The position numbers were made by a program, and so were the translations under genes. From the NCBI GenBank assembly GCA_029261995.1, contig JAJDAF010000010.1:196767-260766 (forward strand): DNA of 64,000 nucleotides. The letters run 5' to 3'. A model generated the notes under the pieces. The model ran no database searches and had not been told where the DNA came from. It was given only the letters and a program-made list of their open reading frames with translations. Positions 32,343 to 49,285 of this stretch are shown here, piece after piece. This DNA is from Candidatus Zhuqueibacterota bacterium (GTDB lineage Bacteria > Zhuqueibacterota > Zhuqueibacteria > Oceanimicrobiales > Oceanimicrobiaceae). Each line of letters starts with the position of its first letter. Positions within the stretch are counted from its first letter, which is position 1.

Positions 32343-33929
32343 ATGAAAAGGTTGGTCTTCTTGCTATGTGTTACAGCCACTGCTTCCGCAATCGGTCAGG
32401 TCACGCACCATGTCTCTTTGGTGGGCAATCTAAACACCGGACGCTATACAAATGATGTTTGGGGCTACGCCGACGATGCCGGCAATGAATACGCAATCGT
32501 CGGCCATCGAACCGGTACTGCGATTGTTCTCGTCACGCCAGACAGCCTGATTGAGGTCGATTTCGTTCCCGGCGTATCTTCGACCTGGCGCGACATCAAA
32601 ACGCACGGGAATTATGCTTACGTGACAGCCGACCGCGGTAACGAGGGCCTGCTTATTCTGGATTTGTCGCCTCTGCCGGACTCCGTGCGAGTTGTCGATA
32701 GATTCGCCAACGCCTTTACCCGGGCACACAACCTTTACATCGAAAACGGGCATGCCTACATTTCTGGCTCAAATAGCGCGCGCGGAGCCGACATCCTGGA
32801 TTTGGCGAATCCGGAAGTCCCGGTCGAGGTAGGCTCGATCACCTTCAATTATTTCCATGACATCTTCACCCGCAACGACACATTGTTTGGCAGCACCGAA
32901 CGCCGGGGCTCCCTCGCAATCTTCGATGTCACTGGTAAGGCGAGGCCGGCGCTTGTGGCGGAGATTCCGTTTCCCGGCGGCGGCATCTCGCACAACAGTT
33001 GGGCGACGCCTGATGGCCAGTTTGTCATGACCACAGAGGAGACCAGCGGTCAGTCGGTGAAGATGTGGGACATCAGCAACCTCGGCAATCCAACGCTGGT
33101 TGACGAATATCTGTCGGGTAGCAGGCTGGCACACAACACGCACATTCAGGGAGATTATGCTTATATCTCGCATTACGCGGATGGCGTGCGCATTCTTGAT
33201 ATTTCCGACCCCAGTCATATGGTAGAGGTTGGTGGCTTTGATACCAACGCCGGCACTTCCGGATTTGCGGGCTGCTGGGGCGCCTATCCATTTACGAACT
33301 CTGGCTACGTTTACGCCTCAGATCAGGACAATGGACTATTTGTGTTGGACTTCGACGGCACCCGCGCCACTCGAATAAACGGGCATGTTTTCGATTCTGA
33401 GACTGGCAAAATACTTAGTGGAGCCCAGGTTGAGGTGCTGGAGAATGGCATCTCTGCCATCAGTAACGTTGATGGCAAATACAAGCTTGGCCTGACCGCT
33501 GGCGGCATCTTCACCTTGAGGGTCAGCAACAATGGTTATGAAACCGCCAACGTATCGGTTATGGTGGGTGATGGCGAGACAGCCAACAAACTCATTTTTC
33601 TGAAGCCTTCCGTAACCACTGGAATCGCCGACGATTCAGGGTTGATTCCAGATGAGTTCAGCGTGGCGCAGAACTATCCGAATCCCTTCAACGGCGGCAC
33701 GACGCTGAGCTACAATCTACCGCTGACAGTCAGAGTCAAAGTGAGCATATTCAACACAGTGGGAAGCGAATTGCGAGTGTTGCAGGACGGCTTGCAACCG
33801 GCAGGACACCACCAGATTCAATGGGATGGCAGGAACGCACAGGGGCATGAGTTGCCGAGCGGGATTTACTATTATCAGATTGATGCCGCCGGTGAGGTGC
33901 TGGCCGGCAAAATGATCATGGTGAAGTAA
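32343..33929 (+). CDS. LVIVD-repeat (choice-of-anchor B) beta-propeller protein with carboxypeptidase-regulatory-like domain and T9SS C-terminal sorting domain
   Basis: A signal peptide is followed by LVIVD-like repeats (AIVLVTP, LLILDL, ADILDL, LAIFDV, VRILDI, LFVLDF). A CarbopepD_reg-like domain (GHVFDSETGKILSGAQVEV) precedes the C-terminal ~80 aa, which carry NYPNPFNGG...YYYQIDAAGE...K, matching the T9SS CTD (TIGR04183). Confidence 0.7.
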   Translation: MKRLVFLLCVTATASAIGQVTHHVSLVGNLNTGRYTNDVWGYADDAGNEYAIVGHRTGTAIVLVTPDSLIEVDFVPGVSSTWRDIKTHGNYAYVTADRGNEGLLILDLSPLPDSVRVVDRFANAFTRAHNLYIENGHAYISGSNSARGADILDLANPEVPVEVGSITFNYFHDIFTRNDTLFGSTERRGSLAIFDVTGKARPALVAEIPFPGGGISHNSWATPDGQFVMTTEETSGQSVKMWDISNLGNPTLVDEYLSGSRLAHNTHIQGDYAYISHYADGVRILDISDPSHMVEVGGFDTNAGTSGFAGCWGAYPFTNSGYVYASDQDNGLFVLDFDGTRATRINGHVFDSETGKILSGAQVEVLENGISAISNVDGKYKLGLTAGGIFTLRVSNNGYETANVSVMVGDGETANKLIFLKPSVTTGIADDSGLIPDEFSVAQNYPNPFNGGTTLSYNLPLTVRVKVSIFNTVGSELRVLQDGLQPAGHHQIQWDGRNAQGHELPSGIYYYQIDAAGEVLAGKMIMVK

Positions 33930-36252: not shown

Positions 36253-36260
36253 ACTTTGGG

Positions 36261-36344
36261 TGCCGAAGGTGGGATTCGAACCCACACGGGATTGCTCCCA
36301 CACGGCCCTGAACCGTGCGCGTCTGCCAGTTTCACCACTTCGGC
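36261..36344 (-). tRNA. tRNA-Leu (anticodon CAG), long variable arm, CCA not encoded
   Basis: The reverse complement folds as acceptor GCCGAAG/CTTCGGC, D arm, anticodon stem CACGG/CCGTG with loop TTCAGGG (CAG), a 15-nt variable arm (TGGGAGCAATCCCGT), T arm GTGGG-TTCGAATC-CCCAC and discriminator A. Coordinates may be off by a nucleotide or two. Confidence 0.8.
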
Positions 36345-36444: not shown

Positions 36445-36903
36445 ATGAGTGAGAAGATTATCACAAAGAACCGGAAGGCCTGGCATGACTACCATATTGT
36501 CGATACGGTCGAGGCCGGCATTGTGCTGCTGGGTACGGAAGTGAAGGCCCTGCGCGACGGCAAAGCAAACCTGCGGGACAGTTATGCCAACGTGAAAAAC
36601 CAGGAGGTCTTTCTCTACAACGTGCATATCAGCCACTACTCGCACGGCAATCTCAACAACCACGAGCCGCTGAGGGAGCGCAAGTTGCTGCTGCACCGCA
36701 AGGAGATCAAAAAGCTCATCGGCAAGACTCAGGAAAAGGGTCTGACTCTGGTGCCGCTCAAGCTCTATTTCAAACGCGGCAAAGTTAAGGTTGAGTTGGC
36801 CATGGCCCGCGGCAAGAAGTTACACGACAAACGACATACCATCGCCAAGCGTGACGCCGACCGAGATCTGCAGCGGACTTTGAAGAGCAAAGACCAATAT
36901 TAA
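36445..36903 (+). CDS. smpB: SsrA-binding protein SmpB
   Basis: Motifs [24 protein letters not shown] and the C-terminal basic tail [16 protein letters not shown]. Length 152 aa. Confidence 0.9.
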
Positions 36904-36954: not shown

Positions 36955-38208
36955 TTGGAAGGCTGGAAGACATTGAGCAAGACTAACGTTTACGACACGC
37001 TGAAAGAGCGCGGTTTCATAAAACAGGTGACTGACGAAGATGCGGTTCAAGCCGCGCTGGGCAATAGCCAGGTAACGGCCTACGTTGGATTTGACCCCAC
37101 GGCGGATAGCCTGCACGTCGGTAATCTGCTTGGCTTGATGGCGCTGGCCCACCTTCAGCGCGCAGGGCATCGCCCAATCGCGCTTATCGGGGACGGCACC
37201 GGAATGATCGGAGACCCGAGCGGCAAGACAGAGATGCGTCAACTGCTCACGCGCGAAAAAATCGCATCGAATGCGGAGAGGATCAATGCGCAAATCAATC
37301 GCTACTTTACGATGGACGGACATGCCGGCTTTGCGGTGCGCAACGCCGACTGGCTGCTGGACCTGAATCTGGTGGAATTCCTGCGCGACATCGGCCGCCA
37401 CTTTAGCGTTAACAGAATGCTGGCCGCGGAGTCTTACAAGGTGCGAATGGAGACTGGTCTGTCGTTCATCGAGTTCAACTATCAAATTCTGCAGGCGTAC
37501 GATTTTCTGAAGTTGTTCAGAAGTCATGGTTGTACCCTGCAAATGGGCGGAGACGACCAGTGGGGCAACATTATCGCGGGCACGGATTTGATTCGTCGTG
37601 TGGAAAGCCAACCTGCTGAAGGGCTGACCTGGCCGCTCCTGACCACCGCCGGCGGCCAGAAAATGGGCAAGACCGCCAAAGGCGCGGTATGGCTCGACGG
37701 CAGCAAAACCTCGCCCTACGAGTACTACCAGTACTGGATAAACGTCGATGACCGAGATGTCGTCGCGCTCCTGAAATACTACACGTTTCTGCCAATGACT
37801 GAGATCGAGAAGCTGGCGCGGCTCGAAGGTGCTGAGATTCGTAAGGCAAAAGAGGTGCTCGCCTACGAAACCACCGAAATCACGCACGGCAAAGGTGAGG
37901 CCGATAAGGCGCGCGAAGCCTCCCGCAGCGCTTTCGGTGGCGGAGGACAGGACATCAGCGCCGTACCCACCACCGAAATGGCGTCCAGCCGTTTTGACGC
38001 CGGGGTTCTGGTGGTCGATGTGTTCGCCGAAGTGGGGCTGACTAAGTCGAAGGGCGAAGCGCGGCGGCTCATCCAGCAGGGTGGGGCTTACGTTAACGAG
38101 AAGAAGGTCGAGACAATTGACGATAGCCTGACCATTGCGAACGCCGTGGAAGGAGCACTCATGCTGCGAGCAGGCAAGAAGCGCTACCACCGTCTTATGA
38201 TCAAGTGA
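36955..38208 (+). CDS. tyrS: Tyrosine--tRNA ligase (class I, HIGH/KMSKS with C-terminal S4 domain), TTG start
   Basis: HIGH region (DPTADSLHVGNLLGLM), KMGKT (KMSKS variant), the tyrosine-binding motif GFDPTA...IGDPSGK and a C-terminal S4 domain. An alternative TTG at 36973 would give a more typical N-terminus. Confidence 0.9.
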   Translation: MEGWKTLSKTNVYDTLKERGFIKQVTDEDAVQAALGNSQVTAYVGFDPTADSLHVGNLLGLMALAHLQRAGHRPIALIGDGTGMIGDPSGKTEMRQLLTREKIASNAERINAQINRYFTMDGHAGFAVRNADWLLDLNLVEFLRDIGRHFSVNRMLAAESYKVRMETGLSFIEFNYQILQAYDFLKLFRSHGCTLQMGGDDQWGNIIAGTDLIRRVESQPAEGLTWPLLTTAGGQKMGKTAKGAVWLDGSKTSPYEYYQYWINVDDRDVVALLKYYTFLPMTEIEKLARLEGAEIRKAKEVLAYETTEITHGKGEADKAREASRSAFGGGGQDISAVPTTEMASSRFDAGVLVVDVFAEVGLTKSKGEARRLIQQGGAYVNEKKVETIDDSLTIANAVEGALMLRAGKKRYHRLMIK

Positions 38209-38560
38209 GTCAGTCACGCTGCAGAACCACCTGCAATCCAGTTGCGGCAGCGATCTGCGCCAGGAGCTATTTTTTCCTTGAATTCGTTGCAAAATATTCA
38301 TTTCTTCCCCAATCGTAATTGTAACTACTAGGATTGCACGTGGTTCATCTGAAGTTCCTGCGAAGATCTTCGATTGGCTTTGTGAGTTCACTCCGGGTGG
38401 CAGATGGGCTCTGGAGGGTTCGGAACAGGCCACTTGACATTGAACAAAGAGTTGTTGATTTGATGCAAATTGTTTGTATGGCCCGCTTGCCGTCTCACCG
38501 TCAGGTCTTCACGTCGCCATGTGTAAACAATCGATTTCTGCAAAAGCGAAGGAGAGAAAC

Positions 38561-39808
38561 ATGCGATTTGCGCAACGCAACATAATCACCCTGAACACGG
38601 TTTTCCTGACCACGCTCATACTCGCTGCTTGGGCCGGACGTGGCGTCGCCCAGGAGATTCCGGAGTCGGTGCTGGACATCTTCGATGAAAGCTGTGCGTT
38701 CTCTGGCTGTCATGCCGGTCCGAATTCCCCGAATGGCCTGGATTTGACGGAAGATTTTGCCTTGGCGTCGCTCGTAAACCGGCCGAGCCGCGACTTCGGA
38801 AACGAAATCTTAAGAGTGCAGCCGCGGAACCCGGCGCGTAGCTATCTCATAATGAAAATAAAAGACGACCCGGCTATCAAAGGCGGAAGTATGCCGCAAA
38901 ATGGCAAGCCCTTGCCATCGTCTCAAGTCAAAATTCTGGAAGATTGGATCAATTCACTACCGGCTGATTTGAAAGCAAAGTCGCCGGCGCGAGAATACGC
39001 CGAAGCGTTTGCCGGCGTGTCGCTCTCGACCCTGCCGACGACACAGACGCTCGAGAAAGGCTTTTTTGCCTACCGGATTTCACACAGATGGCGCGGCAAT
39101 GTCAAGAGCGGCTTCGCCAATTTCTACGGCCTCGATGGCGGCGCGAGCATCTTTACGGAATTGCTATTTGCTTTGAACAACGATTTGAGCGCGTCGGTTG
39201 GGCGTGCGAATCAGGATGCAACATTTGAGTTTGCCGGCAAGTGGCGATTCCTGAAGGAAAAGTCGAGTGGCGGCACGCCGATTTCGGCCGCACTCGTGGC
39301 TGGGCTCGACTGGAACACACGCAAGAATCCCATCGGCGTCACCGGACCGCTGGACCGTACGGACAGCGAACGATTTCATTGGTTTGCGCAAGTGCCTCTG
39401 TCAAAACAGGTGCACGATAAGTTTTCCATTCTGTTTGTTCCGGGCGTGCTCCTCAACGGCAATGTGCAACTGGATGATGAAGATGCTATCGTCACTCTCG
39501 GCTTCGGCGCCAGGCTTCACTTTGGGTCGGATTTCTCCCTGTTTGTGGAAGGCGTTCCCATCGTTGCCGGCTCAGACGGAGCCGCTGTAGTCGGAGGCCC
39601 TCGACCTGAAAGGGGGGACCGGGTGTTTAACGACGGCTTCACCGTGGGCCTCGAGAAGCGCGTCGGCGGTCATGTTTTTCATGTTTACCTGACTAACTCG
39701 CTAGGGTTGGCCACCAGCCACTCCATGAGCGGCGCTGACTTTGATTTCACCGAGCGCGATCTGCGATTGGGTTTTAACATTTACAGGACCCTGCGTTTGC
39801 CGTTCTAG
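38561..39808 (+). CDS. Fused PSCyt1-like domain (atypical C-x4-CH putative heme motif) + outer-membrane beta-barrel; Cyc2-like porin-cytochrome architecture
   Basis: The ATG at 38561 is preceded by an RBS (aaggagag). After the signal peptide (TLILAAWAGRGVAQE) comes a ~110-aa domain (IFDESCAFSGCHAGPNSPNGLDL...SMPQNGKPLPSSQVKILEDWI) that fits the planctomycete cytochrome C (PSCyt1) pattern but with CX4CH. The C-terminal ~250 aa are amphipathic beta-strands ending in the OMP-signature terminal Phe (...YRTLRLPF). The ORF track start at 38474 (TTG) is upstream. Confidence 0.5.
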   Translation: MRFAQRNIITLNTVFLTTLILAAWAGRGVAQEIPESVLDIFDESCAFSGCHAGPNSPNGLDLTEDFALASLVNRPSRDFGNEILRVQPRNPARSYLIMKIKDDPAIKGGSMPQNGKPLPSSQVKILEDWINSLPADLKAKSPAREYAEAFAGVSLSTLPTTQTLEKGFFAYRISHRWRGNVKSGFANFYGLDGGASIFTELLFALNNDLSASVGRANQDATFEFAGKWRFLKEKSSGGTPISAALVAGLDWNTRKNPIGVTGPLDRTDSERFHWFAQVPLSKQVHDKFSILFVPGVLLNGNVQLDDEDAIVTLGFGARLHFGSDFSLFVEGVPIVAGSDGAAVVGGPRPERGDRVFNDGFTVGLEKRVGGHVFHVYLTNSLGLATSHSMSGADFDFTERDLRLGFNIYRTLRLPF

Positions 39809-39888
39809 TCGGGAACATTCCACGCAACTAAAGTGTTGAGCAGGTCGCGGTCAACATGTGAGTACAGATTTTATGGAGATTCAGGGAC

Positions 39889-40305
39889 ATGAGGCACACT
39901 GCTTTCTTGAGCACGATTATTCTCGCCGTCAGTTTGATCGCGGCATGTGAGCACAGCAAGACGCTGGCCCCCGAGGCCGCTGAACCAACACTTTCCAACA
40001 TTCAGAATACCATTTTCAGTCAAAAATGTGCCACTTCGGGGTGCCATGTACCCGGCGGCAACGGCCCGATGCCGATGCGTACGAGCCAGGAATCGTTTTC
40101 CAATCTAGTGGGCGTGCCCGCAAGCCAAAGTACCGGCCTGAACCGGGTGACCTCGGGAGATCCCGACAACAGTTATCTGCTACAGAAGCTGGAAGGCGCG
40201 CCGGGCATTCAGGGCGAACGGATGCCTCTTGGCGGCGCGGCCCTCGCCGGTGAACAGATCGAGTTGATTCGCGACTGGATTTCGACCGGAGCTGCGAACA
40301 ATTAG
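39889..40305 (+). CDS. Lipoprotein with stand-alone PSCyt1-like domain (C-x4-CH motif)
   Basis: A lipobox (SLIAACEHS) precedes FSQKCATSGCHVPGGNGPMPM...ERMPLGGAALAGEQIELIRDWISTGA. This is paralogous to the N-domain of the upstream gene with the same CxxSGCH spacing. Confidence 0.5.
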   Translation: MRHTAFLSTIILAVSLIAACEHSKTLAPEAAEPTLSNIQNTIFSQKCATSGCHVPGGNGPMPMRTSQESFSNLVGVPASQSTGLNRVTSGDPDNSYLLQKLEGAPGIQGERMPLGGAALAGEQIELIRDWISTGAANN

Positions 40306-40353
40306 CCAGAATTACCAAGGTTCGAATAACAAAGAAAACTTGCGGAGGTTAAT

Positions 40354-40986
40354 ATGAAGAAGATGATTTTACTGATCGCGGCAGGCGCTGCATCACTCAT
40401 GTTTCTGGCCATTCAGGAGTCAAAACTGCCGGCAAAAACCAGCAATCTGCGTTTGACTCAAATCGCCGGCCTTGAGCTGTTTGAACTCAAGGGCTGCACC
40501 GCATGCCACACGCTTGCGGGCAAAGCAGAAGTAACGCGTACACCGGTTGCAAACAATCGAGATGATGTCTGGTTCAGCGACCACGTTGGGTCCGAGTCCG
40601 AACTTGTGCTCGGCCAGGCCAAAAAGAAACGCAAGAAAAAGAAGCTACTCAAGAAGGAAGTTGCAGCGCTCAATGATTTCCTGTTCGAGTCAGACAGTGC
40701 CGCCAAGAAGCAGATTTTCGGACTCGCAGCAAACCTCAGAAATGGCGCCTACCTGGCCTACCAAAATAACTGCATCGGCTGCCACAGGATCGCCGGTGGA
40801 GGGAAGGAAACCGCGCCCGATTTGACTTTTGCGGCTGACAAGAAAAGCGACCGGAGCTGGCATATCAAAAATCTCAAAAACCCGCAGCAGTTTTCCGCCG
40901 AATCCGTGATGCCGGCGTTTGATGAAAAACTGTCGGATGAGCAGCTTGGGCAGATTGCGGACTACCTGCTGACGCTCAGGAAGTAG
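40354..40986 (+). CDS. Diheme c-type cytochrome (two CXXCH), periplasmic, with poly-lysine linker
   Basis: A signal/anchor precedes the heme motifs CTACH and CIGCH, with a Met ligand candidate (SVMPAF). A K-rich linker (KKKRKKKKLLKK) separates the two heme domains. Confidence 0.7.
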   Translation: MKKMILLIAAGAASLMFLAIQESKLPAKTSNLRLTQIAGLELFELKGCTACHTLAGKAEVTRTPVANNRDDVWFSDHVGSESELVLGQAKKKRKKKKLLKKEVAALNDFLFESDSAAKKQIFGLAANLRNGAYLAYQNNCIGCHRIAGGGKETAPDLTFAADKKSDRSWHIKNLKNPQQFSAESVMPAFDEKLSDEQLGQIADYLLTLRK

Positions 40987-41213
40987 GAAATCTAAACTGG
41001 CATTTGCAACTGGACCAATGAGCGCACTGATGACCAGCTCTTCGATTCCATTTCCGGCGGCTCAGGCAAATGTCAAAGTTTAGAAAAAAACTTCCGCCGG
41101 ACGAAATAAACGCGGCGGTCAGGTTTGTTCGCAGATTTAGAGAAAGATGGACGAAGTTCCGACACTCGGAAGTGACACAACTTTTTTTCTTGACTCATCG
41201 ACCAGGAATTTGA

Positions 41214-41714
41214 TTGCAGATATTCGACAAACAGTCTGACACGGCTGTTCCGCGCAGGCGCTTCTTGAAGGTGGGAATTGCCGCGTTGAACGGTTTTATT
41301 GCTTTTGCACTTGCGATTCCTGGACTCGGCTACTTGCTGACACCAGTTTTGCGGCGTTCGGATGGCGCCTGGATTCCTCTGGGGAATGCCTCGAGTTTGC
41401 AGAGTGCTGAGCCCCGCAAAGCCAGCTTCAAATACACCACCACGGAAGGCTACTCGCGCAACGAGAAAAACGGATTCGCATGGGTCGTCACGGACACCGA
41501 AGAAGCCTCGGGTATTTCGGCTTTTTCGGCAGTTTGTTCCCACACGGGCTGCAATGTCACGTGGCAGTCAAGAGAAAACCATTTCGTTTGTCCCTGTCAT
41601 GACGGACGGTACGACAGACGCGGCGCCGTGGTCTCAGGGCCGCCGCCGCGACCGTTGAGCAAGCTGGCCTTGAAGATGGAGAATGGCCAGGTGTTTGTGC
41701 GTTTGCCGTCGTGA
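41214..41714 (+). CDS. petC: Rieske [2Fe-2S] iron-sulfur subunit of cytochrome bc-type complex (Tat signal)
   Basis: A twin-arginine motif (RRRFLKVGIAAL) and TM anchor are followed by Rieske box I CSHTGC and box II CPCHDGRY. Confidence 0.85.
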   Translation: MQIFDKQSDTAVPRRRFLKVGIAALNGFIAFALAIPGLGYLLTPVLRRSDGAWIPLGNASSLQSAEPRKASFKYTTTEGYSRNEKNGFAWVVTDTEEASGISAFSAVCSHTGCNVTWQSRENHFVCPCHDGRYDRRGAVVSGPPPRPLSKLALKMENGQVFVRLPS

Positions 41715-41768
41715 TGGTGCTAAAGATAGAAGACGTCCTGCGAACTCATAACTGACAAATGACCTGAG

Positions 41769-43430
41769 ATGGAGCCCAATAAAAAAGGATTGTTGCAAGC
41801 GTTCAATCGTTTCCTGAAGGAGCCGATGCCAAAGGGTGTGAATTGGCCGAACGCGCTTGGATCCTGCTTGCTGGCGCTGGTGGTGGTTCAGGTAATCACG
41901 GGAATCCTTCTCTCTCTTTACTACTCCCCAAATGCGGATGTCGCCCATGACAGCGTGCGCTTTATCGAGCAGCAGGTTGTGTTTGGCAGTCTGATTCGCG
42001 GCATCCACTATTTTTCCGCCAGCGCGATGATGGTGGTCATCTTTCTACACCTCGCCCGCACATTTTTTTCCGGGGCATACAAACCGCCGCGCCAGTGGAC
42101 TTGGATTTTCGGCGTGGCTCTGTTGCTGGTGGTGGTCGGTTTTGCCTTTACCGGTTACCTGTTGCCCTGGGACATGAAAGCCTATTTCGCAACCAAAGTC
42201 GGGCTCAACATCGCCGGGATGACGCCGATAGTTGGCGACAGTCTGAAGCGAATCTTGCAGGGCGGCAGCGAGTTGGGCATGCTGACGCTGTCACGCTTTT
42301 TCGCCTTGCACGTGGTCGTTTTGCCGCTGTCTCTCGTTCTATTGATTGCCTTGCACATCACTTACATCAGGATGCACGGTCCAACGCCGCTGGGTCGTGG
42401 GGGCGAGCCAGGCCAAGTTTCCGGTACCTTTTTTCCACAGCAACTTTTCCGAGATTCGGTGGTGGCGGCTGGCGTGATTGGCCTAATATTCGTGCTGGCT
42501 CTCAAGTTTGGCGCGCCATTAGAGGCGCCGGCGGATCCCAACGACACCAGCTACATTCCTCGTCCGGATTGGTATTTCTATGGCGCGTTTCAGCTTTTGA
42601 AATTGTTTGAAGGGCGATTCGAAGTGGTTGGCGCCATCGTTTTGCCCGGGCTGTTTCTGGCTGTCATGGTGTTGCTTCCATTCCTTGATCGCAGCCCCGG
42701 CAGATCCCTCAAAGACCGCCCGGCTGTGGCCTCGATTGGAGCCATTGCCTTGTTGTCAATCGTCATTCTGACCGCGGTTGGGGCCTACACCGGCGAGAAA
42801 CAAAAGGAGAGCCTGACCTCCGACCGGTCAGTCGTCGATGTTGAAGGCGAGATCGAAGAGACTTTTGTGGTCGATCCGGCCATTGGCAAGCAGCTTTACG
42901 ATGGGCTGAAGTGTGCTGAATGTCATGCCCTGGCCTCGGAAGGCGTTAACAATCCGCCGGGCCTGGAGTTTTCGGGAAACAAGTACCGGCAGTCCTGGCT
43001 GGTGGCCTATTTGCAGCAACCGCACCGCGTACGCTGGCAGGGCAAGAACCGGCGTCCGGTTGCGCGCATGCCCAATTTCGATCTCACGGATCGGGAAGCC
43101 CTCAATCTCTCAGTCTACCTGCTCGAACTGCGGCGGGATAACAAATTCCCCGAACCTGAATTTGACTGGGCGGAAGCGGACAGCGAAATGGTAGATTCCG
43201 GAAAAGAGCTGACCGTAGATTACGGCTGCATGGGCTGCCACCGCATCGGGGACGAAGGCCAGAACGTCGCCCCGGAGTTGAGTCATGCGGGTAGCAAGTT
43301 GCGGGAAGCCTACCTGTTCAGCATCGTTCAAGAGCCAGACAAAGTCGTGCCCGGAACCTCGATGAAAAACTTTCAGCTCGAAGTTGAGGATATTGAGGAT
43401 ATCGTGGCATACTTGCGGCTCTTGGAGTAA
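41769..43430 (+). CDS. petB: Cytochrome b (b6/subunit IV-like, PDWY Qo motif) fused to C-terminal diheme cytochrome c
   Basis: The N-terminal half has cytochrome b helices with conserved His pairs (FLHLARTFF, ALHVVVLP, ALHITYIRMH) and the PDWY motif (IPRPDWYFYG). The C-terminal ~170 aa carry CAECH and CMGCH and end in a typical cytochrome c helix (IVAYLRLLE). Confidence 0.85.
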   Translation: MEPNKKGLLQAFNRFLKEPMPKGVNWPNALGSCLLALVVVQVITGILLSLYYSPNADVAHDSVRFIEQQVVFGSLIRGIHYFSASAMMVVIFLHLARTFFSGAYKPPRQWTWIFGVALLLVVVGFAFTGYLLPWDMKAYFATKVGLNIAGMTPIVGDSLKRILQGGSELGMLTLSRFFALHVVVLPLSLVLLIALHITYIRMHGPTPLGRGGEPGQVSGTFFPQQLFRDSVVAAGVIGLIFVLALKFGAPLEAPADPNDTSYIPRPDWYFYGAFQLLKLFEGRFEVVGAIVLPGLFLAVMVLLPFLDRSPGRSLKDRPAVASIGAIALLSIVILTAVGAYTGEKQKESLTSDRSVVDVEGEIEETFVVDPAIGKQLYDGLKCAECHALASEGVNNPPGLEFSGNKYRQSWLVAYLQQPHRVRWQGKNRRPVARMPNFDLTDREALNLSVYLLELRRDNKFPEPEFDWAEADSEMVDSGKELTVDYGCMGCHRIGDEGQNVAPELSHAGSKLREAYLFSIVQEPDKVVPGTSMKNFQLEVEDIEDIVAYLRLLE

Positions 43431-43953: not shown

Positions 43954-46900
43954 ATGCAGTATAAGCTACTAAGTTCTCTAGTTGTCCTGGTTATGTGCAT
44001 CGCGGCTTTTGGTCCCGCGGTTGCTCAACCTGCCAAGACGCCGCCCGTTGTTACCGGTCCGCAAACACTCTCAGGTTTCGGGGGCAACGCCGGCCTTTAC
44101 GAATTTTTGACCCAGGGAGAGACGGCGCGAGGCGACATCGGTGGCATCTCCACCGCTGAAGATTATTGGGTTTACATCGTCGGAATCGATGCCAGTGGCG
44201 TCACAGGACCCGACGGGCGTCAGATTCAATTCAATTTGCAGAATACGATTCAGGGCGAGACCGAACACCTTGGCATCAGTTTCTCGCTGGACAATCCTGA
44301 CATTGGCGGGTTTGACCTGCTGGAGTGCTACCAATCCAACGGCGGCGGATTGCTGACCCATGGCCTGGTGAGTGCTTCCCTCGATGTCACGGTTTTTGAC
44401 TTGCGTTTCAACTTCTCCAAAGACAACGCGGAAGACGGTTGGACCGTCACACCCTACTATCGCCTGTCGGGCGGTAGTTGGACCCCCTTCTCTGGTGGCT
44501 CGTTCACCGGCAACCCTGCCTTTGATTTCGACGAAGCCAAACTGACTGTCTTCTTTACGAATTCCATCGCAAATTCCGACGCCGCGGACGGCCAGGTCGT
44601 GTTCGACAACTTCTTTGTGCTCGGGCCAATTCCAGAGCCGATCACGGTCGTTTATGTTGATGATGCCTGGCAGGGTCTCGCACCGGGTGACGCAGTGCAA
44701 TTTCCCGGGGAGGACGACGTTCGGGTTATGGGGGTGAATGCATTCGCTACGATTCAGGAAGGCATCGATTCCTTTATCCAGATGCCGCCGGCAGCTCTCA
44801 GGGAAGACAGACTTTTGCCGCAGGCGGAAGCTGTTGAAGAAATCACGGTACTCGACTTAAATGTTGCGCCTGGAACCTACCAGGAAAATGTGGTCATTCC
44901 CTTTCCAGCACGGCTTCTCGGCTCTGGTAGCGGCAGCGACCCGCTGCAAGACACGATCATTGAGGCCGACCCTCAGAATACCGGATTTCCTGTCATCGAT
45001 ATTGCTGGTTTTGCGCCCGGCGGTGTTTCAGTTAATTCCCGCCTGGAGATTAGAGATCTCAGAGTCACTGGTGCGGTTGGCTCTGGAGATGCACCCAGCG
45101 GCATCTCCATCACCGCCGATGGATTTTTCGATGTCGCGGCCCAAGGCGCGTTGCAGGCCAGTGCCGCCGCCGGCGTATCGGTAATTCAATTCATGACGTT
45201 CAACAACGTCACCGCGGTCGATAATTCGGGCCACGGGATTGCTGTGAATTCTGACGGAATCGTGAGTGACCTACGCGTGGTCAATTGCGAGGTCTCGAAT
45301 AACAGCAACCACGGCATTTTCATCTCCTCCAGCATTGCATCATTCGACAGCCTGATTGTCGATAGCTGCACCATCGAGGACAACGGCATCACCGGAATTA
45401 CCTCAGGGCCGCAGGGTTCTCAGAATGTGGACAACATCCATATCAGTAATTCGACGCTTTCCAGAAATGGCGATGCACTCAGTCCTTCCGGTAGCGGTTC
45501 CGGCGATATCAGCCTGTTCGACTTTAACAGTGACGCTTCAATCACCAACGTTGATGTAACGGGGAACGGCGCGCACATCGGCATCCAGATTCGCGGTGTC
45601 GATAACGCAGGCACTTCTCCGGCGGGCAATGTCCAACTTGACGATGTCACCATTTCCGGGCAGTACCAGCATCCCAATACCTGGGTCGGCTCCGGACTTT
45701 TTATCGCCAACTTCAGTTCACTAAGCAGTGTCGGCCTGAACAATGTTCAGATCGATGTTTCGCCCGTGTCGCCCTCGAAGGATGTCATCAACCTTTATAA
45801 TGATAATATCGATGGCAGCCTGGACATTGGCAATATGCAACTGGGCGGCAATGCTGACCTGGATATTTTGAACAGCGCACCCGCTTCCGTGGATGCCAAC
45901 GATGCGGTGTTCACCAACGCGGCAGACAATTTCGAAATCGAGGACCGCATCTTCCATGGTCTCGATGACAATAGCGTCGGCTTGGTGCGCTGGACGGGCA
46001 ATCAGATTTATCTCACCGCGACAACTTTTTCAGCGCCGGATACCGCGGTAGTTCTCGACAATATCCTTTCTGTTGTGGATAACGGTGACACGCTGAACTT
46101 CGGCGCCGGCAATTACTACACAACTGCCGGGGCGGTGATCAGCAAGAGCCTGACCTTCTTCGGCGGCGCAGGCGTGATTTGCCGGCCACTTGGGGCCACG
46201 TCTGGCGCCTGGGTTACGGTGGATACACTTGTGACTCTGAATCTTGATAGCATCATCTTTGATGGTGCCGGGTACGACATCGGCATCGGCTGCCTGGTGA
46301 GAGGTCGCGGTTATTGCCGTAACCTGACCTTCAGGAACATAGTGGACGACAACGGCGGCGGCATTGCCCTGTGGCTACGCGGCGACCAGCCTGTTGAAGT
46401 TTCCGGCACCACCTTCAGCAATATTGGCGGCCTGTCCCCAGGTGGGTCGATCGCCTACGGCGCCTGCTTCACGGGAACTGGAGTTGTGGGGTCCACCTAT
46501 CGTGGTAACACCTACGTTGGCCGCGGTGCGGGAGCATGGGTTGAATATGGCCTGTTTCTCGATGCAGGTGCGCAGGTGAACATTGTCAGCAACACCTTTT
46601 ACAACCTGCTCGGTTTCACGAGTGTCGAGGGTGTCGTCGGGTCAGCCGGGATTTGCGTGGTTACCAATGGCGGTGGCGGCACATCTGCTTCCATCGACAG
46701 TAGCACAATCTACGACTGCTACAACGGAATCAAAGTTGGCGAATTCGATGGGGACCAGAGCTTCGCGATTATCAGGGATACGGAAATCTACCAGAGCACC
46801 GTTGGCCTTTGTATTGGCGGCGCGTTGTTTGTGAAGGCTGAGGACAACGACATCCACGGCAATGGCACCGGCGTTGTGGTGCGAAATGCCACGGTCTTTG

Positions 46901-48204
46901 ATCTCGACCGCGATCGCATCCAGGATAACGACGACGGCATCATTGTTGAAAATTCGTTTGGCGAAATTGACGAGTGCATCATTTCCAATAATTCAAGTGT
47001 TGGCTTGAGCATCTCGGATGAGTCCAGCACCGGCGTGACCGTGCACCGCAATGAATTCTGCACCAGCGGCGAAATGGGCATGGAGAATCTGGGCCAAACC
47101 ACGGTTGACGCCACCACCAACTGGTGGGGGGACTTCAATGGTCCTGGTGACCAGGGACCCGGCAACGGTGACGGCGTTGGCGTTGGCGTTGACTACAGTA
47201 ACTTCGAAACCAGTAGCCTGTTTGTGGATTCTCCGTGTTCGGAGTTGGCGTTGTGTGAGAACGATGGGGATGTGAATAACTCAGGCAGTCTAACCGCTCT
47301 CGACGCATTAGCAGCTTTCTCTATAGGATTGAACGGAGGCACATTGCCAGCTGAATTTGACGAGCCGGGATTCGAATGTGAAGTCTTGGCTGCAGACGTC
47401 AACTGCAACGGCAGTGTTACTGCGTTAGATGCGCTTGATATCTTCGAACGAGCCTTAGCCCAGTTACCGCCCTCTGCTTGTTTTGCGGGACAGTTGAAGT
47501 TGGACAAAGTAGTGGGCTCGCCACGAATCTCCTTGCTGGCGGTGGAGAGCGGCGCAGAAGAGACTGACAAAATCCGGGTAGCACTGGCTGCCTCCAACTC
47601 GAGTGGGCTTCGTGCCTTCAGTACAACGCTGAAGTTTCCGGCAGAGAGAGTTGATTTTCTTCGCGTGGAGCGCTCTGAAATGACCTCGGATTGGGCTCAG
47701 CTCGATGGTAAGGTACAGAAGGCAGGTGAATTGACGGTCGCTGGATTCAATGTCGAATTTGAAGAATCCAGCGAGTCAACGATTCTCTTTACCTTGGTTT
47801 TCAAGAAGAAGGATGAAGTTGGCCCCATTGAGATTGAATTGACCGGTGCGTATGATGAGCTAGCTGGAGCCATTTGGGAAAGGACCGTGGTCGATGGGAA
47901 TGTAGCTACTCCTGAGGTGTTTGCACTGCGCCAGAATTACCCCAACCCCTTCAATCCTGAAACTCTGATTGAGTACGATATCCCCAGTATCAGCCACGAG
48001 AAGGTGCCAGTGCGACTGACCATCTACAATGTAAAAGGACAGATCGTTCGAACGTTAGTAGATGCACAGAGATCGGTTGGTGCTCACAAGGTTAAGTGGG
48101 ACGGCAGAAACGACCATGGTTTGCAGGTTCCGTCCGGAGCCTACTTCTACACCATCAAAGCCGGAGATTTTAAAGACACAAAACGAATGATGCTGGTGAA
48201 ATAA
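43954..48204 (+). CDS. Giant secreted right-handed beta-helix (pectate-lyase/NosD-like repeats) protein with dockerin-like, cohesin-like and T9SS C-terminal sorting domains
   Basis: A signal peptide is followed by long arrays of parallel beta-helix repeats (NNSNHGIFISSS, IEDNGITGI, IHGNGTGVVVRNA, IQDNDDGIIVEN, ISNNSSVGLSI). A dockerin-like duplicated Ca-binding segment (DVNNSGSLTALDALAAF / DVNCNGSVTALDALDIF) and a cohesin-like module (aa ~1190-1310) follow. The C-terminus reads QNYPNPFNPET...YFYTIKAGDFKDTKRMMLVK, a T9SS CTD. Confidence 0.7.
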   Translation: MQYKLLSSLVVLVMCIAAFGPAVAQPAKTPPVVTGPQTLSGFGGNAGLYEFLTQGETARGDIGGISTAEDYWVYIVGIDASGVTGPDGRQIQFNLQNTIQGETEHLGISFSLDNPDIGGFDLLECYQSNGGGLLTHGLVSASLDVTVFDLRFNFSKDNAEDGWTVTPYYRLSGGSWTPFSGGSFTGNPAFDFDEAKLTVFFTNSIANSDAADGQVVFDNFFVLGPIPEPITVVYVDDAWQGLAPGDAVQFPGEDDVRVMGVNAFATIQEGIDSFIQMPPAALREDRLLPQAEAVEEITVLDLNVAPGTYQENVVIPFPARLLGSGSGSDPLQDTIIEADPQNTGFPVIDIAGFAPGGVSVNSRLEIRDLRVTGAVGSGDAPSGISITADGFFDVAAQGALQASAAAGVSVIQFMTFNNVTAVDNSGHGIAVNSDGIVSDLRVVNCEVSNNSNHGIFISSSIASFDSLIVDSCTIEDNGITGITSGPQGSQNVDNIHISNSTLSRNGDALSPSGSGSGDISLFDFNSDASITNVDVTGNGAHIGIQIRGVDNAGTSPAGNVQLDDVTISGQYQHPNTWVGSGLFIANFSSLSSVGLNNVQIDVSPVSPSKDVINLYNDNIDGSLDIGNMQLGGNADLDILNSAPASVDANDAVFTNAADNFEIEDRIFHGLDDNSVGLVRWTGNQIYLTATTFSAPDTAVVLDNILSVVDNGDTLNFGAGNYYTTAGAVISKSLTFFGGAGVICRPLGATSGAWVTVDTLVTLNLDSIIFDGAGYDIGIGCLVRGRGYCRNLTFRNIVDDNGGGIALWLRGDQPVEVSGTTFSNIGGLSPGGSIAYGACFTGTGVVGSTYRGNTYVGRGAGAWVEYGLFLDAGAQVNIVSNTFYNLLGFTSVEGVVGSAGICVVTNGGGGTSASIDSSTIYDCYNGIKVGEFDGDQSFAIIRDTEIYQSTVGLCIGGALFVKAEDNDIHGNGTGVVVRNATVFDLDRDRIQDNDDGIIVENSFGEIDECIISNNSSVGLSISDESSTGVTVHRNEFCTSGEMGMENLGQTTVDATTNWWGDFNGPGDQGPGNGDGVGVGVDYSNFETSSLFVDSPCSELALCENDGDVNNSGSLTALDALAAFSIGLNGGTLPAEFDEPGFECEVLAADVNCNGSVTALDALDIFERALAQLPPSACFAGQLKLDKVVGSPRISLLAVESGAEETDKIRVALAASNSSGLRAFSTTLKFPAERVDFLRVERSEMTSDWAQLDGKVQKAGELTVAGFNVEFEESSESTILFTLVFKKKDEVGPIEIELTGAYDELAGAIWERTVVDGNVATPEVFALRQNYPNPFNPETLIEYDIPSISHEKVPVRLTIYNVKGQIVRTLVDAQRSVGAHKVKWDGRNDHGLQVPSGAYFYTIKAGDFKDTKRMMLVK

Positions 48205-48244
48205 GGGCCAGCTTCATTCCTTGTTCAAAAAAGGAGATTTAGGT

Positions 48245-49285
48245 ATGATGAGCATTTTTCGACCGGCGAGTTGGCTGCTTTCCGCGACCACCTTTGTATC
48301 GCTAGCGTTTGGCCAGCCCCAGCTTGATCTTAGCCCGCCACTAAGCGTGGATGTGGAGCCACCGCCAGGACAGACGGTGATAATCCCGTTGACGTTGACT
48401 AATACGGGCGCAGAGCAAGTCAAAGCTGTCACTTTCGATTTCACCTTTCCGACTGCTAATCTGACGTATGTCGGGCTTGACACTGTTGGCACGCTGACTG
48501 GTGGCTGGACTCAAATGTCGGGACAGGAAAACACGCCGGGCGTGGTCTCAATACTGGGTTTCGGTAGTGTTGCTGCAGCTCAGACAGGTGTCTTGGTGAA
48601 TGTAACGTTTCAGTCGAAAGACCAATCTGGTGTTGGTCTTCTGCAACTTAGCAACTTCCAGGATCACGTCGCCGGCGCCACCACCACCGACGGCACCCTC
48701 AACAGCACCGTCCCAGTCGAGCTTGCCTCGTTCTCCGCCCAAATCGCCGACCAGGCAGTTGAGCTGAGTTGGCTCACCATCAGCGAAAGCAACAACTTCG
48801 GCTTCGATGTTGAAGAAAGCGCGGACGGCGAAGCTTTTACAAAGATCGGTTTTGTGAAAGGCCACGGCACCACGCTGGCCGAGCAACGCTACCAGTTTAT
48901 CGATAGCGACGTGCGGCCCGGCGCCCACTACTACCGGTTGAGGCAAATCGATTTCGACGGCGCCTTTGAATATTCCAGCACCCTGCAAGTGAACATGGCC
49001 GCGCCGCAGACGTTTGCCCTGGCGCAGAACTACCCGAATCCATTCAATCCGGAGACGGCGATTCAGTTTGCCGTGCCTGAAGCCGCGAGCGTGCAAGTGA
49101 CGATTTACAATGCGCTCGGCCGGGCAGTTCGAACTCTGGTAAACGGCGAGTTTGCTCCCGGCACCCACAGCGTCACCTGGGACGGCCGAGACGACAATGG
49201 CCAGCAGGCCGCGAGTGGACTCTATCTTTACACTGTCAAAGCCGGCAAGTTTGTACAGACGCGTAAGATGATTATGCTTCAGTAA
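48245..49285 (+). CDS. Cohesin-like domain protein with T9SS C-terminal sorting domain
   Basis: The ATG at 48245 has an RBS (aaggag). A signal peptide and a cohesin-like beta-sandwich (VIIPLTLTNTGAEQVKAVTFDFTFPTANLTYVGLD...VNVTFQSKDQSGVGLLQLSNF) precede a C-terminal CTD (AQNYPNPFNPETAIQF...LYLYTVKAGKFVQTRKMIMLQ). The ORF track start at 48221 is TTG. Confidence 0.6.
   Translation: MMSIFRPASWLLSATTFVSLAFGQPQLDLSPPLSVDVEPPPGQTVIIPLTLTNTGAEQVKAVTFDFTFPTANLTYVGLDTVGTLTGGWTQMSGQENTPGVVSILGFGSVAAAQTGVLVNVTFQSKDQSGVGLLQLSNFQDHVAGATTTDGTLNSTVPVELASFSAQIADQAVELSWLTISESNNFGFDVEESADGEAFTKIGFVKGHGTTLAEQRYQFIDSDVRPGAHYYRLRQIDFDGAFEYSSTLQVNMAAPQTFALAQNYPNPFNPETAIQFAVPEAASVQVTIYNALGRAVRTLVNGEFAPGTHSVTWDGRDDNGQQAASGLYLYTVKAGKFVQTRKMIMLQ

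What the first reader, a model, noticed from the sequence alone, without database searches (positions are those of the whole stretch)
40354..43430. Unusual cytochrome bc-type complex: Tat-Rieske plus cytochrome b fused to a C-terminal diheme cytochrome c, preceded by a diheme cytochrome with a poly-lysine linker
The operon encodes a diheme cytochrome c (40354..40986; CTACH and CIGCH separated by KKKRKKKKLLKK), a Rieske protein with a twin-arginine signal (41214..41714; CSHTGC/CPCHDG), and a 553-aa cytochrome b with a PDWY Qo-site motif whose C-terminus carries two further CXXCH hemes (CAECH, CMGCH). No separate cytochrome c1/f gene is present. This is a non-canonical bc architecture of the kind reported in Planctomycetes, Acidobacteria and candidate phyla. 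It sits as the inner-membrane end of the putative porin-cytochrome module upstream. The 12-residue lysine-rich linker inside a periplasmic cytochrome is itself odd, and may be an electrostatic docking element or a proteolytic hinge.
Basis: partly seen in the sequence, partly recalled or inferred. Interest (0 to 1): 0.65.

Follow-up and report, generated by a model that had tools for sequence, protein, structure and literature searches.

The report
Fused cytochrome b–dihaem c respiratory complex
These genes encode a quinol-oxidising Rieske/cytochrome b complex whose cytochrome b is fused to two c-type haem domains; this fusion type was already catalogued from genomes, and here it sits in a conserved operon with an extra dihaem cytochrome and an outer-membrane barrel that also carries a haem domain.

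Summary
There is a 210-aa dihaem cytochrome c, a Tat-signal Rieske protein and a 553-aa cytochrome b fused to two class I cytochrome c domains. All four b-haem histidines, the PDWY motif, both CXXCH motifs and both Met ligands are invariant across 15 homologues.

The fusion is real and common: 2402 scored homologues, about 70 of the 120 listed full-length at 535-585 aa. It matches the 'PDWY-cyt c / PEWY-cyt c' clades defined by Kao & Hunte (2014), so the core architecture is a known kind.

The 'poly-lysine linker' is not a linker. It is the first half of a confidently predicted helix. It is conserved as a K/R-rich patch in 20 aligned homologues. It aligns with the basic stretch next to the Met ligand in the fused c-domain.

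What I could not find described is the operon. In relatives at 51-64% identity the complex is preceded by a DUF5777 outer-membrane barrel with an N-terminal CX4CH haem domain. A lipoprotein paralogue of that domain often follows. Elsewhere the same barrel sits next to cupredoxins or multihaem cytochromes.

The best reading is a menaquinol:cytochrome c oxidoreductase. A link to an outer-membrane redox module is likely but unproven. Interest is moderate.

The parts
38561..39808 (+). Outer-membrane protein (415 aa from the called start; the mechanical ORF starts at 38474). It has a signal peptide, an N-terminal c-type-like haem domain with CAFSGCH (CX4CH, residues 45-51, DNA 38693-38713) and M111-P112, then a DUF5777 beta-barrel (about residues 168-415).
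   Evidence: Pfam DUF5777 at 3e-47. In 55 homologues C45, C50, H51, M111, P112 and W129 are invariant. The AlphaFold model has pLDDT 89 and shows a helical N-domain plus a barrel. Best PDB fold matches are FapF, OmpG, NanC and KdgM. Gene start taken from the gene call in L001.
39889..40305 (+). 138-aa putative lipoprotein monohaem cytochrome. It has a lipobox (LIAAC, Cys20) and CATSGCH (residues 47-53, DNA 40027-40047). It is a paralogue of the N-domain of the barrel protein.
   Evidence: BLASTP against the barrel N-domain gives 32% identity, E 5e-19. The domain family has 7954 cluster representatives. CX4CH and CXXCH alternate between repeats of the same proteins. The L092 homologue has a canonical CIRCH motif and weak Pfam cytochrome c hits.
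40354..40986 (+). 210-aa membrane-anchored dihaem cytochrome c. It has a hydrophobic N-terminal helix (residues 2-20). Domain 1 has CTACH (DNA 40495-40509), an invariant His77 and no Met. Domain 2 has CIGCH (DNA 40771-40785) and Met186, and is NorC/CcoO-like.
   Evidence: Pfam hits on domain 2 only. Invariant C48, C51, H52, W73, H77, C140, C143, H144 and M186 in 40 homologues. Model pLDDT 91. PDB profile hits to NorC and CcoO. Paralogous to the fused dihaem module, 25% identity, E 6e-10.
40621..40656 (+). Basic run KKKRKKKKLLKK (residues 90-101 of the 210-aa cytochrome).
   Evidence: It lies in predicted helix 92-112, where block-mean pLDDT is 97-98. It is K/R-rich in all 20 aligned homologues, net +1 to +9. 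It aligns with 'KNRRPVARMPNF' of the fused c-domain 1. Codons are mixed AAA/AAG with no long A run.
41214..41714 (+). Rieske [2Fe-2S] protein, 166 aa, TTG start. It has a Tat motif RRRFLK (DNA 41253-41270), a hydrophobic anchor (residues 17-42), box I CSHTGC (DNA 41535-41552) and box II CPCHDG (DNA 41589-41606).
   Evidence: Pfam Rieske 3e-11. The best NCBIfam hits are b6f-type iron-sulfur subunits, but at 65 bits, below their cut-offs of 154-250. Present upstream of the cytochrome b gene in most related loci.
41769..43430 (+). Cytochrome b (seven hydrophobic helices, residues 1-340; equivalent to b6 plus subunit IV, unsplit) fused through a roughly 30-residue acidic tether to two class I cytochrome c domains. 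Domain 1 is residues 372-455 (CAECH at DNA 42912-42926, Met434). Domain 2 is residues 475-549 (CMGCH at DNA 43227-43241, Met532). The Qo motif PDWY is at DNA 42564-42575. Haem b ligands are H80, H94, H181 and H196.
   Evidence: Pfam, invariant residues and seven TM-like segments. The first PDB hit is a bacterial cytochrome b at 1e-44; b6 is second at 2e-42. The C-terminal c part aligns to nothing in any solved cytochrome b chain.

Best explanation
Genes 40354-43430 encode a quinol (most likely menaquinol):cytochrome c oxidoreductase of the Rieske/cytochrome b superfamily. It belongs to the already catalogued type in which an unsplit seven-helix cytochrome b ends on the periplasmic side in fused class I cytochrome c domains.

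Inferred mechanism, following established bc/b6f chemistry. Quinol is oxidised at the Qo site (PDWY). One electron goes to the Tat-exported, membrane-anchored Rieske cluster. It then passes to the two His/Met c-haems fused to cytochrome b, which stand in for cytochrome c1/f. The other electron crosses the membrane through haems bL and bH (a Q cycle). No haem ci is expected, because the Cys of the CxGG motif is Ala.

The separate 210-aa cytochrome is a membrane-anchored paralogue of the fused dihaem module. It has one probable His/His haem and one His/Met haem. It most likely relays electrons onward. Its conserved basic helix (the 'poly-lysine' run) is a candidate docking surface for the conserved acidic segments of the fused module.

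In this lineage (KSB1/Calditrichota-like) the three genes form one conserved operon with two upstream genes. These are a DUF5777 outer-membrane barrel that carries a CX4CH haem domain, and a lipoprotein copy of that domain. The physiological partner of the complex is therefore probably a redox module at the outer membrane rather than only a terminal oxidase.

Shown: gene and domain content, ligand conservation, synteny. Inferred: quinone type, Q cycle, order of haems, docking, and the direction and substrate of the outer-membrane link.
For: - Domains and cofactor ligands: four invariant b-haem His, with H-x13-H on helix B and a b6-like H-x14-H on helix D (read from the sequence).
- PDWY, which Kao & Hunte associate with menaquinol and low-potential Rieske proteins.
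- Seven TM-like helices put the C-terminus, and so the c-domains, in the periplasm.
- 'ALGS' replaces CxGG. The family consensus TLGS is the same motif Dibrova et al. report for short cytochromes b lacking haem cn.
[quoted passage not shown] Homologues of the window protein come from Acidobacteria, Nitrospira, Planctomycetes and Verrucomicrobia.
- The 210-aa cytochrome has 42 homologues with invariant haem ligands. It is paralogous to the fused module. Its model is confident, with the basic run helical.
- The acidic interdomain segment (net -4 to -7) is found in the clade at >=55% identity; a 210-aa cytochrome gene was seen beside only some of these members.
- Operon: no + strand terminator-like site between 38100 and 44100.
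- The barrel, (138-aa lipoprotein), 210-aa cytochrome, Rieske and fused cytochrome b order recurs in L082, L090, L093 and L153. It is partial in L091 and L092. L153 has different flanking genes.
- In L092 a different CXXCH-plus-barrel-like protein occupies the barrel's place. In L159 the same protein precedes the 210-aa cytochrome gene, but the fused cytochrome b gene was not seen there.
- Elsewhere the haem-bearing DUF5777 barrel sits beside cupredoxins (L157, L158) or multihaem cytochromes (L154, L155).
Against: - There are no functional data.
- The quinone type is inferred from the motif only.
- No terminal oxidase or reductase lies in the 64-kb window, so the real acceptor is unknown.
- Relatives at <=48% identity (for example the Marinimicrobia locus L085) carry only Rieske plus the fused cytochrome b.
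- Some close relatives lack the upstream genes (L086), or even an adjacent Rieske gene (L083, L088). The outer-membrane module is therefore not an obligate partner.
- Fold matches for the barrel are to 12-14-strand barrels. These are smaller than known electron-conduit porins, so the haem domain may only be tethered at the periplasmic face.
- Domain 1 of the 210-aa cytochrome has no significant Pfam hit, and its His/His ligation is inferred.
- Part of the synteny reflects relatedness of the genomes: L082 shares SmpB and TyrRS upstream.
Confidence: 0.8

Rival explanations
1. This is an ordinary housekeeping complex III. It simply passes electrons from the quinol pool, through the 210-aa cytochrome, to a terminal oxidase or periplasmic reductase encoded elsewhere. 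The upstream barrel and lipoprotein genes are neighbours with an unrelated role, for example haem or metal handling or an outer-membrane anchor.
For: The core pair of Rieske plus fused cytochrome b occurs alone in more distant relatives. Domain 2 of the 210-aa cytochrome is most like NorC and CcoO, the haem subunits that feed haem-copper reductases. Rieske/cytochrome b modules in a related phylum are paired with other periplasmic systems, such as the Nap cluster of Caldithrix abyssi. The barrel is small.
Against: The barrel gene stays next to the 210-aa cytochrome, Rieske and cytochrome b genes at only 51-60% protein identity and with changed flanks (L153, L090, L093). In L092 another haem-motif-plus-barrel-like protein replaces it. 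In other contexts the haem-bearing barrel is always beside redox proteins.
Confidence: 0.3
2. The cluster is an iron (or other metal) oxidation pathway of the Acidithiobacillus type. The outer-membrane haem-barrel acts like Cyc2 and takes electrons from Fe(II). The small cytochromes carry them across the periplasm. The Rieske/cytochrome b complex runs in reverse (uphill, driven by proton-motive force) to reduce the quinone pool.
For: The architecture parallels Cyc2: a single haem motif fused to a barrel. Cupredoxin genes sit next to the barrel gene in L157 and L158, and one family member is fused to cupredoxin/COX2 domains (P0238). KSB1 genomes from iron-oxidising biofilms were reported to carry iron-oxidase genes (PMC10732223). 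That A. ferrooxidans pairs Cyc2, rusticyanin, dihaem c4 and a reverse bc1 comes from my own knowledge, not from a call.
Against: Homology to Cyc2 was not tested. The barrel seems smaller than the 16 strands I recall being proposed for Cyc2. The PDWY and low-potential-type features are those of forward menaquinol oxidation. No carbon-fixation or oxidase genes lie nearby.
Confidence: 0.15
3. The lysine run is a flexible interdomain linker or protease-sensitive hinge that separates two independent cytochrome domains.
For: It lies between the two CXXCH motifs, and its composition is extreme: 10 basic residues in 12.
Against: It is predicted helical in a region of block-mean pLDDT 97-98. It is continuous with the conserved C-terminal helix of domain 1. 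It is conserved in charge and register across 20 aligned homologues without length variation. It is homologous in position to a structured basic stretch in the fused c-domain.
Confidence: 0.05

Closest known systems
'PDWY-cyt c' and 'PEWY-cyt c' clades of cytochrome b (Kao & Hunte 2014, PMC4122944)
   Same: An unsplit cytochrome b with PDWY (some relatives have PEWY) and a class I cytochrome c fused to the C-terminus, found next to a Rieske gene. [quoted passage not shown] Homologues here come from Acidobacteria, Nitrospira, Planctomycetes and Verrucomicrobia.
   Different: The host lineage is KSB1/Calditrichota-like. This subclade has two fused c-domains (about 555 aa), whereas the Nitrospira relatives align as if they have one. 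It also has an extra dedicated dihaem cytochrome and an outer-membrane haem-barrel in the operon. I could not find either described.
Bacillus-type b6c complex (QcrABC). Subunit composition is from my own knowledge; the general b6-type features are in PMC5600118.
   Same: b6-like His spacing on helix D. A subunit-IV-type three-helix C-terminal half that ends in the periplasm and carries a fused c-type cytochrome. PDWY and menaquinol. Bacillus loci are retrieved as relatives at about 36% identity.
   Different: In Bacillus the b6 and subunit IV-cytochrome c parts are separate genes, there is one c-haem, and the CxGG Cys binds haem ci. Here everything is one polypeptide, there are two c-haems, and the Cys is Ala.
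Actinobacterial bcc complex (QcrCAB; solved, e.g. 6adq, 7e1v, 7rh5)
   Same: A dihaem class I cytochrome c replaces cytochrome c1. The NCBIfam QcrC model aligns over the whole 210-aa protein and over the fused module.
   Different: Scores are far below the family cut-off (27 and 24 bits against 200). The actinobacterial dihaem subunit is a separate protein, and its cytochrome b is a distant relative (E about 1e-19 to 1e-21).
Geobacter extHIJKLMNOPQS cluster (PMC5877670)
   Same: One gene cluster combines an outer-membrane porin-like protein, c-type cytochromes including a lipoprotein cytochrome, and a Rieske/cytochrome b core. ExtP is the best-scoring NCBIfam model for the b part (214 bits).
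   Different: The score is below the ExtP cut-off of 290. ExtP, ExtQ and ExtS are separate proteins. The Geobacter cytochromes are multihaem. ExtI is a phosphate-porin-like protein, not DUF5777.
Cyc2 fused cytochrome-porin of iron oxidisers (PMC8406198), as a comparison for the upstream barrel gene
   Same: A signal peptide, one haem-binding motif near the N-terminus, and a C-terminal outer-membrane barrel.
   Different: The haem domain is about 100 residues, has CX4CH, and belongs to a large PSCyt1-like domain family. The barrel is DUF5777 and is probably 12-14 strands. Sequence homology to Cyc2 was not tested.

Membership tests
Rieske/cytochrome b (bc) superfamily | Four-helix cytochrome b core with two His pairs ligating haems bL and bH | tested here: met
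   Pfam Cytochrome_B 9e-46. H80, H94, H181 and H196 are invariant in 15 homologues.
Rieske/cytochrome b (bc) superfamily | Qo-site P-[D/E]-W-Y motif in the C-terminal (subunit IV-like) half | tested here: met
   PDWY at residues 266-269. P266, W268 and Y269 are invariant; D/E varies. Pfam Cytochrom_B_C 1e-10.
Rieske/cytochrome b (bc) superfamily | Adjacent Rieske protein with CxHxGC / CxCH boxes and a Tat signal-anchor | tested here: met
   CSHTGC, CPCHDG and RRRFLK. Pfam Rieske 3e-11. A Rieske gene lies upstream in most related loci.
Rieske/cytochrome b (bc) superfamily | Quinol:cytochrome c oxidoreductase activity with a Q cycle | not testable with these tools
   Requires biochemistry.
PDWY-cyt c clade (Kao & Hunte 2014) | Full-length (unsplit) cytochrome b with a class I cytochrome c domain fused at the C-terminus and PDWY as the Qo motif | tested here: met
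   One continuous 553-aa ORF. Two Cytochrom_C stretches after the b domains. Definition read.
PDWY-cyt c clade (Kao & Hunte 2014) | Phylogenetic placement inside that clade | tested here: inconclusive
   No tree was built. Full-length homologues come from phyla that compose the clade: Acidobacteria, Nitrospira, Planctomycetes and Verrucomicrobia.
Cytochrome b6f-type complex | Split b6 and subunit IV genes, CxGG Cys for haem ci/cn, cytochrome f | tested here: not met
   The b and subunit IV parts are one ORF. ALGS stands at the CxGG position in the alignment to b6. No cytochrome f family hit. b6 and PetC NCBIfam scores are below their cut-offs. Only the H-x14-H spacing on helix D is b6-like.
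Cytochrome bc1-type complex | Eight-helix cytochrome b and a separate cytochrome c1 subunit | tested here: not met
   Seven TM-like segments. No Cytochrom_C1 hit in the cluster.
Actinobacterial bcc complex (QcrC/QcrB/QcrA NCBIfam models) | Scores above the curated cut-offs of NF050122, NF050120 and NF050121 | tested here: not met
   27 against 200, 103 against 500, and 47 against 275 bits.
Geobacter Ext Rieske/b module (ExtP, ExtS) | Score above the curated cut-off of NF040969 / NF040971 | tested here: not met
   ExtP 214 against 290 bits. ExtS 37 against 100 bits.
Cyc2-type fused cytochrome-porin (for gene 38561-39808) | Single N-terminal haem-binding motif fused to an outer-membrane barrel | tested here: met
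   Invariant C-x4-C-H plus M-P. Barrel in the model and in the fold matches.
Cyc2-type fused cytochrome-porin (for gene 38561-39808) | Sequence homology to Cyc2 and a 16-strand pore that houses the haem | not tested
   No Cyc2 sequence or model was available in the tools. Fold matches are to 12-14-strand barrels.

The most novel reading that the evidence does not exclude
The five genes at 38561-43430 make up a previously undescribed trans-envelope electron pathway. A DUF5777 outer-membrane barrel carries its own CX4CH haem domain; it would be a cytochrome-porin fusion of independent origin from Cyc2. It is wired through a lipoprotein monohaem cytochrome and a membrane-anchored dihaem cytochrome to a proton-motive Rieske/cytochrome b-cc complex. 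This would let KSB1/Calditrichota-like bacteria exchange electrons with extracellular or outer-membrane-impermeant substrates (iron, manganese, humics) while still conserving energy through a Q cycle. The basic helix of the dihaem cytochrome would be the docking element that joins the two halves.
Probability: 0.3. Interest if true: 0.75.

Novelty: new variant of a known kind. Interest (0 to 1): 0.45.

Why it matters
Cytochrome b-cytochrome c fusions have been catalogued from genomes for more than a decade. In the PDB sequence search, no solved cytochrome b chain aligned beyond the b part of this protein, and I know of no biochemically characterised example. How electrons leave the Rieske centre in these enzymes is therefore untested.

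This locus offers a compact, well-conserved example. It has two fused c-haems plus a dedicated dihaem partner with complementary charge patches, which would suit expression and cryo-EM.

If the conserved link to the haem-bearing DUF5777 barrel is functional, it would add a new kind of outer-membrane redox module. It would also give an energy-conserving route for extracellular electron exchange in abundant, uncultured sediment phyla. It would assign a first role to DUF5777 and to a very large unannotated CX4CH/CXXCH domain family (7954 cluster representatives).

Tried and rejected
1. Frameshift or fusion artefact: rejected. About 70 of the 120 listed homologues are full-length at the same size.
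2. Read-through from the 47-codon in-frame ORF (41070-41213) into the Rieske gene: rejected. The ORF is not conserved.
3. Haem ci (b6-type third haem): rejected, because Ala stands at the Cys position.
4. RNA element in the 228-bp gap: Rfam found only the tRNA-Leu upstream.
The KSB1/Calditrichota-like label rests on the names of homologues at 48-59% identity.
7. Literature on DUF5777: none found.
8. Terminal oxidases or quinone-biosynthesis genes in the window: none found.
9. NCBIfam and Pfam on the alternative 362-aa haem-barrel-like protein of L092: no hits.
10. Slippery poly-A in the lysine run: not present.

Full report
**Observation**

- Pfam assigns Cytochrome_B (9e-46), Cytochrom_B_N_2, Cytochrom_B_C (1e-10) and two Cytochrom_C stretches (3e-21) to the 553-aa protein.
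- It assigns Rieske (3e-11) to the 166-aa protein.
- It assigns Cytochrom_C, Cytochrome_CBB3 and FixO to residues 128-208 of the 210-aa protein.
- No c1 or f family appears.
- NCBIfam gives only sub-threshold hits: ExtP 214/290, b6 204/325, PetC 65/250, and actinobacterial QcrB/QcrC far below cut-off. The proteins therefore belong to none of the curated named families.

**Is the fusion real?**

The exact protein is in public data on a 330-kb contig. Of 2402 scored homologues, about 70 of the 120 listed are 535-585 aa with >=96% coverage.

In an alignment of 15 sequences at 37-66% identity, these residues are invariant:

- the four b-haem histidines;
- P266, W268 and Y269 of the Qo motif;
- both C-x-x-C-H motifs;
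- one Met after each motif.

Hydropathy gives seven helices, so the C-terminus is periplasmic, as c-type haem attachment requires. Helix B has H-x13-H and helix D has H-x14-H, which is b6-like. The Cys of the b6 CxGG motif is Ala (ALGS; family consensus TLGS), so a third haem ci is not expected.

**Comparison with the literature**

[quoted passage not shown] They link PDWY with menaquinol and low-potential Rieske proteins.

The genome scan retrieved relatives in Acidobacteria, Nitrospira, Planctomycetes and Verrucomicrobia, and also in Gemmatimonadota, Marinimicrobia and others.

The core architecture is therefore a known kind. In the PDB sequence search, no solved cytochrome b chain aligned beyond the b part.

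**The 210-aa cytochrome and the 'poly-lysine linker'**

The protein has 42 homologues, all about 210 aa.

- C48, C51, H52, W73, H77, C140, C143, H144 and M186 are invariant.
- Domain 1 has no conserved Met but does have an invariant His77. I infer His/His ligation.
- Domain 2 is NorC/CcoO-like.

The model is confident (pLDDT 91). It places residues 92-112 in one helix, where block-mean pLDDT is 97-98. The lysine run is therefore the start of the last helix of domain 1, not a flexible linker.

The run is an extreme case (+9) of a conserved basic patch, +1 to +9 in 20 homologues.

The protein is a paralogue of the fused dihaem module (25% identity, E 6e-10). In that alignment the lysine run lies opposite 'KNRRPVARMPNF', the basic stretch carrying the Met ligand.

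The fused module has conserved acidic segments: the tether at residues 340-372 and the interdomain segment at residues 455-480, net -4 to -7. These are found in the clade at >=55% identity; a 210-aa cytochrome gene was seen beside only some of these members. Charge-complementary docking is a reasonable hypothesis, but it is untested.

**The gap between 40986 and 41214**

A 47-codon ORF lies in frame with the Rieske gene and is stopped by a TGA directly before its TTG start.

- It has no homologue in the 151 related loci held at the time.
- It has no similarity to the small ORF at the same place in L153.
- Gaps between these two genes in relatives range from about 30 to 550 bp.
- Rfam finds nothing there.

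**Gene neighbourhood**

Directly upstream are two genes.

The first is a 415-aa DUF5777 protein (3e-47). In 55 homologues its N-terminal roughly 130 residues carry an invariant C-x4-C-H, M-P and W. Its model (pLDDT 89) is a helical domain plus a barrel, most like FapF, OmpG, NanC and KdgM.

The second is a 138-aa lipoprotein that is a paralogue of that N-domain (E 5e-19).

This domain belongs to a very large family: 7954 representatives at E<=1e-3, often in tandem repeats. CX4CH and CXXCH interchange between repeats of the same protein. The L092 homologue has a canonical CIRCH motif and weak cytochrome c/PSCyt1 hits. I therefore read the domain as a c-type haem domain.

The order barrel, (138-aa lipoprotein), 210-aa cytochrome, Rieske, fused cytochrome b recurs as follows:

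| Locus | Content |
|---|---|
| L082 | full five-gene order |
| L090 | full five-gene order |
| L093 | no 138-aa lipoprotein |
| L153 (KSB1 genome, different flanks) | no 138-aa lipoprotein |
| L091 | partial |
| L092 | partial |

Identical longest-contig lengths across the three homologue lists suggest roughly 20 further contigs that carry at least two of these genes. This evidence is indirect.

Other contexts of the barrel and its substitutes:

- In L092 the DUF5777 gene is replaced by a dihaem cytochrome, a CXXCH lipoprotein of the same domain family, and a 362-aa protein. That protein has CSQCH near its mature N-terminus and a barrel-like remainder. The barrel nature is inferred from sequence only.
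- In L159 the same three genes precede the 210-aa cytochrome gene. No fused cytochrome b gene was seen in that locus, and its Rieske is a different type (28% identity).
- Haem-bearing DUF5777 genes at 40-49% identity sit beside cupredoxins plus a homologue of the 138-aa lipoprotein (L157, L158).
- Others sit beside multihaem cytochromes and Fe-S proteins (L154, L155).
- A barrel-only DUF5777 gene is in an unrelated context (L156).

There is no + strand terminator-like site between 38100 and 44100.

Counter-evidence:

- Relatives at <=48% identity have only Rieske plus the fused cytochrome b.
- Some closer relatives lack the upstream genes.
- L082 also shares SmpB and TyrRS upstream, so part of the synteny reflects genome relatedness.

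**Interpretation**

With high confidence, genes 40354-43430 encode a Rieske/cytochrome b quinol oxidoreductase of the fused b-c type, with a dedicated membrane-anchored dihaem cytochrome.

Menaquinol as substrate, the Q cycle, and the haem order (Rieske, fused c-haems, 210-aa cytochrome) are inferences from family knowledge.

With moderate confidence, the complex is functionally coupled in this lineage to an outer-membrane haem-barrel/lipoprotein cytochrome module. The closest precedents are:

- the Geobacter ext cluster, which combines a porin, cytochromes and a Rieske/b core;
- the Cyc2, rusticyanin, c4 and bc1 arrangement of Acidithiobacillus (from my own knowledge).

Direction (outward to an extracellular acceptor, or inward and uphill from a metal donor) cannot be decided. 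The window holds no oxidase, reductase or carbon-fixation genes.

**Novelty and score**

The fusion itself is known. The extra dihaem subunit with its basic helix, and the conserved operon with a haem-bearing DUF5777 barrel, were not found in the searchable literature.

I rate this a new variant of a known kind, with interest 0.45. The most novel reading still allowed is a new energy-conserving trans-envelope electron pathway, at probability about 0.3.

Noticed in passing
window 38561-40305: A DUF5777 outer-membrane barrel with an N-terminal CX4CH haem-type domain, followed by a 138-aa lipoprotein paralogue of that domain. In other genomes the pair recurs next to cupredoxins or multihaem cytochromes. 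No paper in the library mentions DUF5777.
   Followed up: yes
window 39889-40305 and proteins P0239-P0388: The 138-aa domain has no significant Pfam hit, yet it has 7954 cluster representatives and is often present in 2-7 tandem copies. CX4CH (C-A-x-S-G-C-H) and CXXCH alternate at the same position in different repeats of one protein.
   Followed up: partly
window 41070-41213: A 47-codon ATG ORF lies in the same frame as the Rieske gene and ends at a TGA directly before its TTG start. It is not conserved in the related loci checked.
   Followed up: yes
L092 4621-5694 and L159 5790-6869: A roughly 360-aa protein has CSQCH about 12 residues after its signal peptide, a beta-rich remainder and a C-terminal ...HMFF. 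The architecture is Cyc2-like. In L092 it takes the place of the DUF5777 gene upstream of the 210-aa cytochrome. It has no Pfam or NCBIfam hit.
   Followed up: partly
window 43954-48204 and 48221-49285; L159 8113-13547: A 1416-aa type IX-secreted protein with a dockerin domain (beta-helix per the precomputed Pfam annotation of L001) and a 354-aa type IX-secreted cohesin protein follow the cytochrome b gene. Their orthologues (39% and 55% identity) follow the 210-aa cytochrome gene in another genome. This could be a surface cohesin-dockerin pair. Neither protein has a CXXCH motif.
   Followed up: partly
window 32343-33929; L082 1-174; L154 1-2857; L155 44-3676: LVIVD-repeat proteins lie near the cluster here and in L082; the window copy has a type IX sorting tail. 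Much larger LVIVD proteins flank the DUF5777/multihaem clusters of L154 and L155.
   Followed up: no
protein P0238: A DUF5777 family member is fused to cupredoxin/COX2 domains. This is another case of a redox domain attached to this barrel.
   Followed up: no
L083 and L088: Close relatives of the fused cytochrome b (57-60% identity) have no Rieske gene next to them. In L083 the upstream gene is a small OMP_b-brl protein.
   Followed up: no
window 36259-36344 (-), 36445-36903, 36955-38208: tRNA-Leu(CAG), SmpB and tyrosyl-tRNA synthetase lie directly upstream. SmpB, TyrRS and a SpoU methylase are in the same order in L082. This shows genome-level synteny, which weakens neighbourhood arguments based on that locus alone.
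   Followed up: partly
window 49553-53758 (-): A 1401-aa subtilase with FG-GAP repeats and a FlgD_ig domain, as in the window's other type IX-secreted proteins. It is one of several very large secreted proteins in the window.
   Followed up: no
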